From assembly GCA_035480095.1 (NCBI GenBank), contig DATIIC010000019.1:17658-81657 (forward strand): a stretch of DNA of 64,000 bases, given 5' to 3'. Source of the stretch: Candidatus Saccharimonadales bacterium. Its GTDB lineage: Bacteria > Patescibacteriota > Saccharimonadia > Saccharimonadales > UBA4665. Below the pieces are notes generated by a model, which was not told the origin of the DNA, ran no database searches, and worked only from the letters and a program-made list of their open reading frames with translations. This document shows positions 22,678-26,079 of this stretch, piece by piece (the stretch's first letter is position 1; the number at the start of each line of letters is the position of its first letter). Made by a program: the position numbers and the translations under genes.

Positions 22678-25600
22678 ATGGAGGAGTTTGAGGAAGTTTA
22701 TGCAGGGTTGAACGCCGCGCAGAAGAAGGCAGTCGATGCCGTTGACGGGCCGGTGCTGGTGGTGGCCGGGCCGGGGACGGGCAAGACGCAGCTGCTTTCG
22801 GCCCGCGTGGCGCAAATTTTGCGCACCACCGACACCCTGCCGCAAAACATACTGTGTTTGACGTTTACCGAAAGCGGGGCGCAGAACATGCGCGACCGCC
22901 TGACGCGCTTCATCGGCAAAAACGCTTACGACGTACAGATTGGCACCTACCACGCCTTCGGCGGCGACCTCATCCGCCGTTACCCGGAGTACTTCACCGA
23001 AACCCGGCTGGAGCGGCCGGTGGACGAGCTGGGCAAACGGCAGATACTTTCGGGCATCATCGACAAGTTGAGTTACCGCAGCCCGCTGAAGCAAACCCGC
23101 CACCATTTGGGCGACTTGATGACCACCGTCAGTGAAGTAAAACGCGGGCTTTTGACGCCCGAATCCATCCGCGACATCGCGGCCAGCAACCTGGCGGTCA
23201 TCAACGAAGCCAGTAAAGTTATTTCCGGCGTGCTGGCCGACTACGTCAAACGCTTGCCCAGCAAAATTGCCGTGGCCGAACCAATTTTCGGTGAAATTTA
23301 CGGCGACCTGGCGGCAATTTCCGAAACCGCCACCAAATACCCGCCGTTCGAAAACCTGGCACAGTTGGCCGCCGACGAACTGGAAAAGGCGTTAACGGCC
23401 GCATCCGAAGCCGGCAAAACTAACCCGCTCACCGCCTGGAAAAACGCCTGGCTGGTAAAAAACGCCGATAACCAATACGTGCTGGGCGGGGCACTGGAAG
23501 CCGCCCGCATGGCCGAGCTGGCAAACGTACTCGAAGCCTACGAAAAGGCTTTGAGCGAACGCGGGCTGTACGACTTTGACGACATGATTTTGCGCGCGAT
23601 TACTGTCTTAGAGAGTAACGCTGACCTTAAATACACCCTGCAAGAACAGTACCAATACATCCTGCTAGACGAGTTCCAGGACACCAACGCCGCCCAGCTG
23701 CGGCTGGTAGAACTGCTGACTGACAACCCGGCGAACGAAGGCCGTCCCAACGTCCTGGCCGTGGGCGACGACGACCAAGCCATTTACGCCTTCCAGGGCG
23801 CACAGTACAGCAACATGCTGGATTATTTCCGGCTGTTCAAAGACGTGCTGGTGATTAATTTGAGCGAGAACTACCGCAGCACGCCAGGCATCATCGAAAC
23901 CGCCCGGAACGTCACTGCCCAAATCACCGACTCGCTTAGCGCCAGCTTCCCCGAGCTAGACAAACAACTTGTCGCTGTTTCCCAGTCATCCCCTCCGTCA
24001 TCCCAGCGAAGGCTGGGATCCAGTCAAAAGAATACTGTCGAAGACACAAGTCCTACACTAGATTCCAGCCTGCGCTGGAATGACCCGGGAAAGAATGCCT
24101 CTGGTGAAATTCGTCGCACCGAATACACCAGCGAAATCGCTGAACGGGCAGGGGTGGCGGCGCACATCAAGCAGCTTTTGCAAGACGGCGTGGAACCAAG
24201 CGAAATTGCCGTGTTGGCGCCCAAGCACAAATACCTCGAACCGCTGGTGCCGTACCTGGACGGCGTGCCGCTGCGCTACGAACGCCGCGAGAATATTCTG
24301 CAGGCACCGGTCATCCGCCAGCTGCTCACCATGAGCAAGCTGGTGCTGGCACTGCACAACTGCCGCTTCACCGAAGCCGACAGCTACTGGCCGGAGGTCT
24401 TGAGTTACCCGTTCTGGGAATTCCCGGTCAGCACCATCTGGAAACTCAGCTGGCGGGCGACCGACACGCGCAAACACTGGACTGAATTGCTTTTGAGTGA
24501 CGACCAATTCCGCCCGGTAGCGCTGCTATTTCTGGCGCTCGCTGGCCAGGTCGAAACCGAAACCTTGGAAGTCATGCTAGATAGATTAACCGGCACGGAC
24601 GAGGTCGCGACCGGCGAAGCGGACTTGCCATTTGTGCGCTCCAAACTCCGCCCGGCACTGCTGGAAGGCGGCGAGGCAAAACTCTACCAAACCGTCACCG
24701 AACTGACCGTGCTGCGGGCGCGGCTTAGCGAACACCAGCAGCAACGCGGCAGCGCCTTGATGCTAAAAGATCTGCTGGATTTCGTAGCCGAGTACGAAGC
24801 CGCCGACGAGCAAATGGTAAACACCAGCCCCTACTCTGAGGCCGCCGACGCCGTCCAGCTGATGACTGTCTTTAAGGCCAAGGGCCTAGAGTTCGCGCAC
24901 GTGTTCATAGTCAGCTGCCACGACGACGTCTGGGGCAGCAGCAGCCGCGGCGCCGGCAACAAGCTGACGCTACCGGCCAACCTGGCGCCCATCCGCCACG
25001 CCGGCGCCACCGAGGACGAGCGCCTGCGGATTTTCTTCGTGGCTCTCACCCGCGCCAAGCAGGGCCTGTACCTAACCAGCCACGCGTCAACTTACGCCGG
25101 CAAAAAACCAGCGCGACTGAAGTACCTGGCCGAAGCCGAGCAGGAAGACGGCACCGTAACCAGCCAAACGCTGCCCGCCGCACACGCCAGCGTCCGCCAA
25201 GACACCATCGACTCCCCGCCGCTGGAAAGCCTGGAAACCAACTGGCACGCCCGCCACACCACGCTCACGCCACGCTTAAGCGAGCTACTGCGCGAACGCC
25301 TGGAACGTTACCGCCTGAGCCCCACGCACCTCACCAAATTCCTAGACCTGGAACATGCCGGCCCGCAAAGCTTTTTGCTGGAAAACCTACTGCGCTTTCC
25401 CACCGCGCCCAGCGTGGACATCCTATTCGGCAACGCCATGCACGAAACGCTGGAGTGGCTGCAACAGGAGCTCAACCGCACCGGCAAACTGCCCACGGCG
25501 GGGCAGGCCAGCGCCCGTTTTAGCAAGCTTTTGGAGCCGGAACCCCTCACCAGCGAACAGCTGGCCGTGCAACAGCAAAGGGGTGAAAACGCCCTGCAGG

Positions 25601-26079
25601 GCTTCCTGGAGGCCTACACGGCCTTTCGCCCCGGCAACAAGCCCGAGTACAACTTCCGGCACGAAGGCGTGGTAACAGATGGCGTCCAGATGAGCGGCAA
25701 GATTGACCTGCTGGAAATCGACCCCGAAACCAAGCGCATAACAGTGGTGGACTACAAAACCGGCGTACTGGGTGCCGACCCCGCCAAGCGCCACCGCTAC
25801 GAACTGCAACTGTACTGCTACAAACTGCTGCTGCAGGGCTCGCACACCTTCCGTGACTACACCGTGGAGCAGGGCAGACTGGTGTTCGTAGAACCAGATG
25901 CCGACGGCAAAATCCAGCAGGTGAACATAACCTTCAAAGACGACGAACTAGCCCGCGTCCGCAAACTAATCACCGCCATGTGGGCCAGAGTCCAAGCCCT
26001 AGACCTTCCGGACATCAGCCAGTACCCAGCCAGCCTCGCCGGCATAAAACAATTCGAACAAGATTTCAGCGCACCGTAG
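22678..26079 (+). CDS. UvrD/Rep-family (SF1) helicase fused to a C-terminal PD-(D/E)xK nuclease domain
   Basis: This 1133-aa protein has Walker A AGPGTGKTQ, motif II DEFQDTN and motif VI-like VALTRAK. The C-terminus has GKIDLLEID...VVDYKTG, a RecB-like nuclease motif. Confidence 0.9.
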   Translation: MEEFEEVYAGLNAAQKKAVDAVDGPVLVVAGPGTGKTQLLSARVAQILRTTDTLPQNILCLTFTESGAQNMRDRLTRFIGKNAYDVQIGTYHAFGGDLIRRYPEYFTETRLERPVDELGKRQILSGIIDKLSYRSPLKQTRHHLGDLMTTVSEVKRGLLTPESIRDIAASNLAVINEASKVISGVLADYVKRLPSKIAVAEPIFGEIYGDLAAISETATKYPPFENLAQLAADELEKALTAASEAGKTNPLTAWKNAWLVKNADNQYVLGGALEAARMAELANVLEAYEKALSERGLYDFDDMILRAITVLESNADLKYTLQEQYQYILLDEFQDTNAAQLRLVELLTDNPANEGRPNVLAVGDDDQAIYAFQGAQYSNMLDYFRLFKDVLVINLSENYRSTPGIIETARNVTAQITDSLSASFPELDKQLVAVSQSSPPSSQRRLGSSQKNTVEDTSPTLDSSLRWNDPGKNASGEIRRTEYTSEIAERAGVAAHIKQLLQDGVEPSEIAVLAPKHKYLEPLVPYLDGVPLRYERRENILQAPVIRQLLTMSKLVLALHNCRFTEADSYWPEVLSYPFWEFPVSTIWKLSWRATDTRKHWTELLLSDDQFRPVALLFLALAGQVETETLEVMLDRLTGTDEVATGEADLPFVRSKLRPALLEGGEAKLYQTVTELTVLRARLSEHQQQRGSALMLKDLLDFVAEYEAADEQMVNTSPYSEAADAVQLMTVFKAKGLEFAHVFIVSCHDDVWGSSSRGAGNKLTLPANLAPIRHAGATEDERLRIFFVALTRAKQGLYLTSHASTYAGKKPARLKYLAEAEQEDGTVTSQTLPAAHASVRQDTIDSPPLESLETNWHARHTTLTPRLSELLRERLERYRLSPTHLTKFLDLEHAGPQSFLLENLLRFPTAPSVDILFGNAMHETLEWLQQELNRTGKLPTAGQASARFSKLLEPEPLTSEQLAVQQQRGENALQGFLEAYTAFRPGNKPEYNFRHEGVVTDGVQMSGKIDLLEIDPETKRITVVDYKTGVLGADPAKRHRYELQLYCYKLLLQGSHTFRDYTVEQGRLVFVEPDADGKIQQVNITFKDDELARVRKLITAMWARVQALDLPDISQYPASLAGIKQFEQDFSAP
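23997..24084. repeat. palindromic hairpin-pair mini-element (MITE/RPE-like) inserted in frame in the helicase gene
   Basis: The terminal inverted repeats are GTCATCCCAGCGAAGGCTGGGATCCAG (23997..24023) and CTAGATTCCAGCCTGCGCTGGAATGAC (24058..24084), with 23 of 27 positions complementary. Each arm is itself a 7-bp hairpin. Confidence 0.7.

What the first reader, a model, noticed from the sequence alone, without database searches (positions are those of the whole stretch)
23997..24084. Palindromic hairpin-pair mini-element inserted in frame inside the UvrD-type helicase-nuclease gene
**Seen in sequence.**
- GTCATCCCAGCGAAGGCTGGGATCCAG (23997-24023) and CTAGATTCCAGCCTGCGCTGGAATGAC (24058-24084) are inverted repeats, with 23 of 27 positions complementary.
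- Each arm is itself a 7-bp stem with a 4-nt loop (TCCCAGC-GAAG-GCTGGGA and TTCCAGC-CTGC-GCTGGAA).
- The element is translated as ...SSPPSSQRRLGSSQKNTVEDTSPTLDSSLRWNDPGK.... This low-complexity stretch interrupts otherwise helicase-like sequence.
- The opposite strand reads VIPAQAGI, a peptide signature typical of translated small palindromic repeats.

**Established knowledge.** Rickettsia palindromic elements are a precedent for such elements inserting in frame into coding genes without destroying them.

Only one copy was seen in this window.
Basis: partly seen in the sequence, partly recalled or inferred. Interest (0 to 1): 0.6.

Follow-up and report, generated by a model that had tools for sequence, protein, structure and literature searches.

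The report
Ssn-type hairpin repeat inside helicase gene
An 88-base selfish DNA repeat made of two mirror-image hairpins sits in frame in a floppy surface loop of a DNA-repair helicase of an ultra-small Saccharibacteria bacterium. The hairpins are of the NTS/SRM type that the small Ssn nuclease is known to cut in other bacteria, so this is a new example of a known kind of event.

Summary
Window 23997-24084 holds two inverted 27-28-nt arms, each with its own 8-bp stem and 4-nt loop.

- **It is an insertion.** Among 120 homologues, 116 have a 9-12-residue turn where this protein has 45 residues. AlphaFold2 gives the insert as the only long disordered segment (residues 440-474), and only the frame in use is open.
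- **Each arm is an NTS/SRM hairpin.** These are the Neisseria Transformation Sequence and Ssn-related motif of Chenal et al. 2025, the ssDNA target of the small GIY-YIG nuclease Ssn.
- **The genome encodes one Ssn-like gene** (103 aa), flanked by GTCAT-tagged hairpins.
- **Gene and arms co-occur.** Among 41 Saccharimonadales genomes, ssn homologues and NTS-like arms occur in the same four. One further genome has two arms, and the other 36 have neither.
- **The 86-89-bp unit recurs in congeners**, including a central hairpin that covaries.
- **The site is reused.** The sister species carries a different ssn-associated palindrome at the same helicase turn, and a third genome carries yet another. 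GatB in this genome carries a single in-frame arm.

Verdict: this is a new member of a known kind, an RPE/WPE-like in-frame insertion of a known repeat family. Mobilisation by Ssn is inferred, not shown. The scan has noted similar in-frame palindromes in other candidate-phyla-radiation (CPR) genomes.

The parts
22678..26079 (+). Host gene: a 1133-aa UvrD/AddA-type helicase with a C-terminal PD-(D/E)XK nuclease. It is intact and has no internal stop.
   Evidence: ORF list and translation. Pfam UvrD-helicase 2.8e-61, UvrD_C, PDDEXK_1. The AF2 model has mean pLDDT 86.8. The best structural matches are AddA, UvrD, PcrA, RecB and AdnB.
23995..24099 (+). Inserted coding block of about 35 codons (residues 440-474). 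It is translated as a disordered loop in the turn between strands 432-433 and 477-483. The ends are approximate, because this loop aligns poorly.
   Evidence: The loop is 45 aa here and 9-12 aa in 116 of 120 homologues. pLDDT is below 50 for residues 440-474 only, apart from 368-373. The site aligns to the PcrA turn TENPEGKP, after motif IV. Only one of six frames is open, the one in use.
23996..24023 (+). Left arm, an NTS/SRM hairpin with its tag on the + strand: C-GTCAT-CCCAGC-GAAG-GCTGGG-ATCCAG.
   Evidence: It matches the published SRM search pattern and the NTS consensus apart from a compensated stem variant. 8-bp stem with 4-nt loop.
24024..24057 (+). Spacer of 34 nt.
   Evidence: It is 65% identical to the spacer of a G008 copy and 56% to a G010 copy.
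24035..24047 (+). Central small hairpin of the spacer: CTGTC-GAA-GACAC, with 4 pairs formed here.
   Evidence: RNAalifold on 7 copies predicts this stem, and 4 of its 5 pairs show a change on both sides that keeps the pair.
24058..24084 (-). Right arm, an NTS/SRM hairpin with its tag on the - strand: GTCAT-TCCAGC-GCAG-GCTGGA-ATCTAG read on the - strand.
   Evidence: It fits the NTS consensus. It fails the SRM pattern only at the first base, where the base before GTCAT is G (sequence).
23985..23992 (+). GTCATCCC, a direct duplicate of the left tag 12 nt upstream. Its origin is unexplained: it could be a remnant of an older arm or a footprint.
   Evidence: the repeat finder family D1. The sister species has CGTCAC at the corresponding place.

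Best explanation
The segment is a non-autonomous, MITE-like repeat of 88 bp. It has two NTS/SRM-type hairpins in inverted orientation, with their GTCAT tags facing outward, around a small central hairpin. It has landed in a surface turn of domain 2A of a UvrD/AddA-type helicase-nuclease of a Saccharibacteria (Saccharimonadales) genome.

**Shown**
- It is an insertion relative to orthologues.
- It is a copy of a dispersed family.
- It preserves the reading frame, and only that frame is open.
- It is predicted to be a disordered loop.
- The same arms flank small single-domain GIY-YIG (ssn-type) genes in congeners and in other phyla.
- Arms and ssn genes co-occur among related genomes.

**Inferred**
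- The element is a gene-less derivative of the arm-ssn-arm unit.
- It spreads through single-stranded DNA, with the Ssn nuclease recognising each hairpin and nicking just 5' of the tag. That activity has been shown biochemically only for the Neisseria and Wolbachia enzymes.
- This copy persists because the turn tolerates about 35 extra residues, so it is a selfish passenger and not a functional part of the helicase.
For: **Insertion**
- Loop length is 9-12 aa in 116 of 120 homologues and 45 aa here.
- Metagenome relatives match over about 650 nt where this gene has 750 nt.

**Structure**
- The insert (residues 440-474) is the only long segment with pLDDT below 50, and it lies between two strands.
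- It maps to the PcrA turn after motif IV.

**Frame**
- One of six frames is open.

**Family identity**
- Arm 1 fits the published SRM pattern, and an arm on contig C13 equals the Neisseria NTS consensus.
- The exact arm occurs in at least 120 stretches from many phyla.
- In those loci, 36 inverted pairs have their tags outward.

**Link to ssn**
- The genome has a 103-aa GIY-YIG gene (PF01541, 63 bits) flanked by outward GTCAT hairpins.
- Homologues of that gene (E 1e-19 to 1e-34) lie beside or between the exact arms in 9 of 80 loci and in G008, G001 and G010.
- ssn homologues occur in 4 of 41 genomes, and arms occur in the same 4 plus 2 arms in one other. Fisher p = 5e-5, though the genomes are not independent.

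**Discrete unit**
- Six copies of 86-89 bp in congeners and in a Saccharimonadales MAG share the arms and the central hairpin, which covaries.

**Turnover**
- Arm counts within one genus are 0, 7, 8, 16 and 30.
- The sister species carries a different ssn-associated palindrome at the same turn.
Against: - No closely related genome with an empty site was found, so the insertion event is inferred from distant orthologues of 82% identity or less.
- No target-site duplication or other transposition footprint is visible.
- GIY-YIG nucleases are not known transposases, and the Ssn paper offers mobility only as a hypothesis.
- The single ssn gene of this genome is flanked by a different arm variant (GTCATSCTGAAC...), not the NTS-like arms of the helicase element. 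The cognate enzyme may therefore be absent here.
- Homology of the 103-aa protein to N. meningitidis SsnA itself was not tested directly.
- Translation of the insert is inferred from the open frame, not observed.
Confidence: 0.8

Rival explanations
1. The copy is kept because it serves the host as a cis-acting Ssn site, as NTS repeats do in Neisseria. There, Ssn cuts incoming single-stranded DNA beside NTS and lowers transformation of NTS-flanked genes. The element would mark this helicase gene for such control.
For: The arms are NTS-type and the genome has an ssn-like gene. NTS/Ssn modulates transformation in N. meningitidis.
Against: - The element sits inside one gene and does not flank it.
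- Most congeners have no arms at all.
- NTS are rarely intragenic in Neisseria, at 2%.
- Other unrelated palindromes occupy the same turn in other species, which fits tolerance better than function.
Confidence: 0.08
2. The inserted loop has been co-opted by the protein, for example as a flexible interaction or regulatory loop of the helicase-nuclease.
For: The gene is intact and the frame is kept. Three lineages carry extra residues at this turn.
Against: - The three inserts are unrelated in sequence.
- The segment is predicted to be disordered, with pLDDT about 30.
- It is found in one lineage only.
- Its sequence is dictated by the DNA palindrome.
Confidence: 0.05
3. The element acts at the RNA level, either as a small RNA like Wolbachia WsnRNA46 or as an mRNA structure that slows translation or directs processing.
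For: Rfam RF02625 WsnRNA46 matches exactly 23997-24084, with E = 6e-6. The predicted hairpin is strong.
Against: - The score of 35.7 bits is far below the gathering score of 65.3.
- The match rests on the shared repeat arms.
- The compensated change in arm 1 favours the two short hairpins over the long RNA hairpin.
- Ssn does not act on RNA.
- No transcript data were available.
Confidence: 0.04
4. It is a REP doublet (REPIN) mobilised by a RAYT (IS200/IS605-like Y1) transposase.
For: The architecture of two inverted hairpins is REPIN-like. The genome has one Y1_Tnp gene, at C16:4304-4960.
Against: That gene is flanked by unrelated palindromes, TCTAGAGGACAGTCCTCTAGA. The arms carry GTCAT, not the GTAG tag. 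The arms flank GIY-YIG genes instead.
Confidence: 0.02
5. It is a chance palindrome in a native variable loop.
For: None beyond the variability of the loop.
Against: Expected 0.06 matches in the window, observed 2. z = -6.6. Copies with identical arms occur in congeners and in other phyla.
Confidence: 0.01

Closest known systems
NTS / SRM repeats with the Ssn GIY-YIG ssDNA nuclease (Chenal et al., Nat Commun 2025, PMC11893778)
   Same: - Same arm sequence: CGTCAT-TCC(C/A)GC-GMAV-GC(G/T)GGA-ATCYRG.
- An oriented 5' tag followed by a hairpin.
- Arms flank small single-domain GIY-YIG genes in inverted pairs.
- Gene and repeats co-occur across genomes.
   Different: - Here a gene-less pair with a conserved central hairpin forms a discrete 88-bp unit.
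- It lies in frame inside an intact housekeeping-type gene, whereas NTS are 2% intragenic in N. meningitidis.
- Saccharibacteria are not mentioned in the main text of that paper.
- Copy number is about a dozen, not hundreds.
Rickettsia palindromic elements (RPE; summarised in PMC10969869)
   Same: Palindromic repeats inserted in frame in unrelated genes of a reduced genome, read through as extra peptide at tolerated places.
   Different: RPEs are about 150 bp and form ten families of their own. No sequence relation to RPEs was tested here. The present element is defined by Ssn-type arms.
Wolbachia palindromic repeats / Rfam RF02625 WsnRNA46
   Same: Same termini, GTCAT...GGGATCCAG / CTGGATTCC...ATGAC, and a long-hairpin layout. 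cmscan delimits exactly 23997-24084. The Ssn paper tested a W. pipientis SRM with its own Ssn.
   Different: The score is below the family threshold (35.7 against 65.3 bits). The stems are shorter and the interior is different. There is no evidence of a small RNA here.
REP / REPIN elements with RAYT transposases
   Same: Doublets of inverted hairpins that form a longer hairpin, associated with a single-copy enzyme gene flanked by the same repeats.
   Different: The enzyme is a GIY-YIG nuclease, not a Y1 transposase. The tag is GTCAT, not GTAG. The RAYT-like gene of this genome has other repeats.

Membership tests
NTS / SRM (Ssn-related motif) repeats | The sequence fits the NTS consensus CGTCATTCCCGCGMAVGCGGGAATCYRG or the degenerate SRM search pattern. 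| tested here: met
   Arm 1 matches the SRM pattern. Arm 2 fails only at the first base. The stem variant CCAGC/GCTGG is a compensated change from CCCGC/GCGGG.
NTS / SRM (Ssn-related motif) repeats | A hairpin core with a non-palindromic, oriented 5' flank (GTCAT). | tested here: met
   8-bp stems with 4-nt loops. The GTCAT tag lies on the outer side of each arm. The two positions before the tag are pyrimidines in 135 arms from other genomes.
NTS / SRM (Ssn-related motif) repeats | The genome encodes a single-domain Ssn-type GIY-YIG protein of about 95-100 aa. | tested here: met
   A 103-aa ORF at G000:C27:18831-19142, PF01541 63.4 bits. Direct comparison with N. meningitidis SsnA or CDD cd10448 was not possible with these tools.
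NTS / SRM (Ssn-related motif) repeats | The repeats flank the ssn gene on both sides. | tested here: met
   NTS-like arms flank ssn homologues in G008, G010 and G001 and in loci L055, L084 and L114. In this genome the ssn gene is flanked by another GTCAT-tagged variant, not the NTS-like arm.
NTS / SRM (Ssn-related motif) repeats | Ssn cuts the motif as single-stranded DNA, on one strand only. | not testable with these tools
   This is a biochemical assay, shown only for Neisseria and Wolbachia enzymes.
RPE-like protein-coding palindromic insertions | A dispersed palindromic repeat is inserted in frame in an otherwise conserved gene, which stays intact. | tested here: met
RPE-like protein-coding palindromic insertions | The insert lies at the protein surface, away from the core. 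| tested here: met
   Residues 440-474 have pLDDT below 50 and lie at a turn between two strands. The site aligns to a PcrA turn. Solvent exposure was not computed, because no coordinates were available.
RPE-like protein-coding palindromic insertions | Sequence homology to one of the RPE-1 to RPE-10 families. | not tested
   No RPE consensus was at hand. The Rfam search gave only WsnRNA46.
REP/REPIN with RAYT | A RAYT (Y1) gene flanked by the same repeats. | tested here: not met
   The only Y1_Tnp gene is flanked by unrelated palindromes.
MITE (classical) | Terminal inverted repeats plus a target-site duplication. | tested here: not met
   The inverted terminal arms are present. No direct repeat flanks any of the 36 + 6 pairs inspected.
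Rfam RF02625 WsnRNA46 | A score at or above the gathering threshold. | tested here: not met
   35.7 bits against 65.3.

The most novel reading that the evidence does not exclude
The arm-ssn-arm units and their gene-less 88-bp derivatives are active mobile elements driven by a GIY-YIG ssDNA nuclease, a class of enzyme not known to transpose DNA. An existing GTCAT-tagged element then serves as a landing or exchange site. That would explain why sister species carry members of two different ssn-associated arm families at exactly the same helicase turn with similar junctions (CTNC-GTCAT ... ATGAC-NCGG).
Probability: 0.25. Interest if true: 0.7.

Novelty: new member of a known kind. Interest (0 to 1): 0.42.

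Why it matters
- It extends the recently described Ssn/NTS system to the Saccharibacteria, an ultra-small epibiotic lineage.
- Its hairpin repeats can behave like Rickettsia palindromic elements and add disordered loops to essential-type proteins.
- The genus offers a compact natural experiment. Related genomes carry 0, 1, 2 or 3 ssn genes and 0 to 30 arms. A well-defined 88-bp unit and recurrent insertion at the same protein loops are also available.
- This material could be used to test whether Ssn nucleases actually move their repeats.
- For annotation, the low-complexity peptides (SSQRRLGSS..., LDSSLRWND, VIPAxAGI) are repeat-derived and not part of the helicase family signature.

Tried and rejected
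- **IS110-type recombinase**, known to target dRS3 in Neisseria by my own knowledge: no PF01548 match in the genome, which is 93% complete.
- **RAYT/REPIN**: the only Y1 gene has its own unrelated palindromes.
- **Rfam**: only a sub-threshold hit to WsnRNA46 and a chance-level miRNA hit.
- **Closer relatives with an empty or filled site**: none were found.
  - The 5.8-billion-protein search gave at best 74% identity over the searched region, residues 330-620.
  - The metagenome scan found no contig with the insert-specific peptides QKNTVEDT or WNDPGKNA. Its best hit was 63% identical.
- **Supplementary tables of the Ssn paper**, wanted for the SsnA sequence and taxon lists: not held.
- **Target-site duplication**: none was seen in 36 pairs from other phyla or 6 pairs from the genus.
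- **NCBIfam** gave no specific family for the 103-aa protein. The PDB sequence search gave only the neighbouring UPF0213 family, at E = 7e-7.
Full report
**1. The observation**

The quoted sequence is present at 23997-24084.
- The repeat finder reports arms 23997-24024 and 24057-24084, 28 nt and 86% complementary. Each arm holds a perfect 8-bp stem with a 4-nt loop.
- The region folds far better than shuffles (-47.6 against -25.0 kcal/mol, z = -6.6).
- The arm core occurs twice in the window where 0.06 is expected.
- The element lies inside ORF 22678-26079 (+), 1133 aa, with UvrD-helicase, UvrD_C and PD-(D/E)XK domains.
- The AlphaFold2 model of that ORF is most like AddA, UvrD, PcrA, RecB and AdnB.

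**2. It is an insertion**

- In 30 orthologues from related genomes the stretch between '...LVAA' and 'RTEY...' is a short turn (N-x-x-L-P-x-x-x-I/L-x), whereas here it is 45 residues.
- Among the 120 best homologues in the 5.8-billion-protein collection the turn is 9-12 aa in 116.
- Internal insertions of 12 aa or more are rare anywhere in this protein. They occur at three places in the 120 sequences.
- Relatives in metagenome contigs match over about 650 nt where this gene has 750 nt. None carries the insert-specific peptides.
- The model has mean pLDDT 86.8. Its only long low-confidence segment is residues 440-474, between strands 432-433 and 477-483.
- The profile alignment to PcrA (1pjr) puts the site at the turn TENPEGKP that follows motif IV (QNYRS) in the helicase core.
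- Of the six frames through the 105-nt block only the one in use lacks a stop codon.
- The same protein is encoded on a second assembly, a 168-kb contig, so the element is not peculiar to one assembly.

**3. What the arms are**

- The arm type GTCATTCCAGCGAAGGCTGGAATCCAG occurs seven times in this 1.25-Mb genome: a 152-bp pair on C13, singles on C1, C2 and C5, and the helicase pair.
- A wider scan for GTCAT followed by a stem of 6 bp or more gives 30 sites, against 7-20 in random genomes. About a dozen of these have the full ...GGAATCCAG ending or the ssn-flank variant.
  - The Neisseria dRS3 repeat hides a longer oriented motif, NTS = CGTCATTCCCGCGMAVGCGGGAATCYRG.
  - NTS-like 'Ssn-related motifs' (SRM) occur in many phyla and flank a 94-aa single-domain GIY-YIG gene, ssnA.
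  - The product of ssnA binds the hairpin and cuts just upstream of it, on single-stranded DNA only and on one strand only.
- Arm 1 fits their degenerate SRM pattern. Arm 2 fails only at the first base. The C13 arm equals the Neisseria consensus letter for letter.
The hosts include Gamma-, Beta- and Alphaproteobacteria, Dehalococcoidia, several CPR groups including Saccharibacteria, Verrucomicrobia, Ignavibacteria and Cloacimonadota.

**4. The link to ssn, tested here**

- The genome has one small GIY-YIG gene of 103 aa (PF01541, 63 bits), at C27:18831-19142. It is flanked by outward-facing GTCAT-tagged hairpins of another variant, GTCATSCTGAAC...GTTCAG.
- Homologues of this protein (E 1e-19 to 1e-34) lie directly beside, or between, the exact NTS-like arms in 9 of the 80 fetched loci.
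- In congeners G008, G001 and G010, every ssn homologue inspected is bracketed by such arms, including perfect Neisseria-type NTS in G008.
- Across G000 and 40 relatives, ssn homologues (E <= 1e-8) occur in four genomes: G000, G001, G008 and G010.
- The NTS-like arms occur in the same four, with 7, 8, 30 and 16 arms. One other genome has two arms, and 36 genomes have neither.
- Fisher's test gives p = 5e-5. The four genomes belong to one genus, so this overstates the independence of the data.

**5. The 88-bp unit**

- In the loci from other phyla, 36 inverted pairs have the tags outward and spacers of 1-140 nt that are unrelated to each other. This is the same orientation as around ssn genes.
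- Within the genus the pair is a discrete unit. Four copies in G008, one in G010 and one in a Saccharimonadales MAG (L104) are 86-89 bp long and have arms 20-27/27 identical to ours (all but one at least 21/27).
- Two of these spacers are clearly related to ours (22/34 and 19/34 identities). All share a central stem CTGGC-GAA-GCCAG, which keeps pairing through changes on both sides in 4 of 5 pairs.
- Several copies, like ours, have one arm with ATCCCAGC/GCTGGGAT and the other with ATTCCAGC/GCTGGAAT. That difference keeps each short hairpin perfect but puts mismatches in the long hairpin.
- Intergenic copies in the genus are flanked by GTT...AAC. Ours is flanked by TCC...CCG. No target-site duplication is seen anywhere.
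- Rfam's WsnRNA46 model (Wolbachia sRNA 46) matches exactly 23997-24084 through the shared termini, but below threshold.

**6. Recurrence at tolerated loops**

- The sister species G001 (80% identical helicase) carries a different palindrome at the same turn, folding at -77 kcal/mol. Its arms, GTCATSCTGAGC...AGCGAAGSATC, form a second family with 5 copies in G001 and 7 in G008. One of these lies beside a G008 ssn gene.
- G014 carries a third, unrelated palindrome of about 110 nt there, folding at -101 kcal/mol, and G004 has a small insert.
- The junctions in G000 and G001 are alike: CT-N-C-GTCAT on the left and ATGAC-N-CGG on the right. I cannot tell whether this reflects one ancestral insertion later overwritten, or two hits at one site.
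- In this genome a single degenerate arm also lies in frame in the linker of GatB, read as VIQAEAGIH. G001's GatB has another GTCAT-tagged insert in the same linker.

**7. Mechanism and its limits**

- What is shown is the anatomy, the family identity, the insertion, the association with ssn and the patchy copy number.
- It is inferred that Ssn nicks these arms in this organism, that the 88-bp unit is a gene-less derivative of arm-ssn-arm units, and that Ssn drives their spread.
- The Ssn authors themselves raise the IS-like architecture only as a hypothesis, and GIY-YIG enzymes are not known transposases.
- The ssn gene of this genome is flanked by a different arm variant, so the NTS-like copies here may be orphans.
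- A RAYT-like gene exists but has its own unrelated repeats. No IS110-type gene was found.

**8. Verdict**

- The element is a new instance, in a new phylum and a new host gene, of two things already in print: NTS/SRM repeats and RPE/WPE-like in-frame palindromic insertions.
- I found no paper describing this for Saccharibacteria or other CPR bacteria in the library searched.
- Earlier agents of this scan have reported comparable in-frame palindromes in other CPR genomes.

Noticed in passing
L162:1834-1860 (G000:C5:38411-38437, outside the window): A single degenerate NTS-like arm (GTCATTCAAGCGGAGGCTGGAATCCAT) lies in frame in the linker of GatB and is read as VIQAEAGIH. Same-genus GatB proteins are 8-10 aa shorter there. 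G001's GatB has a different GTCAT-tagged insert (VIPSEAEES...) in the same linker.
   Followed up: partly
L009 (G001:C11) and L010 (G014:C1), helicase orthologues: Two other species carry unrelated long palindromes at the very same helicase turn, with folds of -77 and -101 kcal/mol. The G001 insert belongs to a second ssn-associated arm family. The family of the G014 palindrome (about 110 nt, arms CCGGCCACGGCTTCGCGGAGAC...) was not identified.
   Followed up: partly
L038:1781-1810 (G000:C27:19117-19146): The right-hand hairpin of the ssn unit contains both the TGA stop of ssn and, in ...GCATGAC..., the ATG start of the next gene, a TlyA-like methyltransferase (MTSQKQRLD...). The repeat tag therefore supplies a start codon.
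   Followed up: no
L161:1303-1959 (G000:C16:4304-4960): A RAYT-like Y1 transposase gene (219-aa frame) is flanked on both sides by the palindrome TCTAGAGGACAGTCCTC(TAGA). This is a second, unrelated repeat-enzyme pair in the genome.
   Followed up: partly
L005:1505-1658 (G000:C13:14963-15116): A 152-bp inverted pair lies in an intergenic region. Its left arm, CGTCATTCCCGCGAAGGCGGGAATCTAG, equals the Neisseria meningitidis NTS consensus letter for letter, in a Saccharibacteria genome.
   Followed up: partly
G000:C2:29550-29633 (outside the window, no locus): A gene-less inverted pair of the arm variant that flanks this genome's ssn gene (GTCATGCTGAACTCGTTTCAGCA / GTCACCCTGAACTTGTTTCAGGG). It suggests that this variant also forms short derivatives.
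   Followed up: no
window 23982-23992: CAGTCATCCC, 12 nt upstream of the left arm, repeats the arm's first bases. The sister species has CGTCAC at the matching place. It may be the remnant of an older arm.
   Followed up: no
protein P0120, around residue 650 of the P0001 numbering: One distant orthologue has a split insert of about 32 aa (GEANTKPDGWASATGDGKA / VERPEGSVFASPT) at another site of the helicase. Its DNA was not examined.
   Followed up: no
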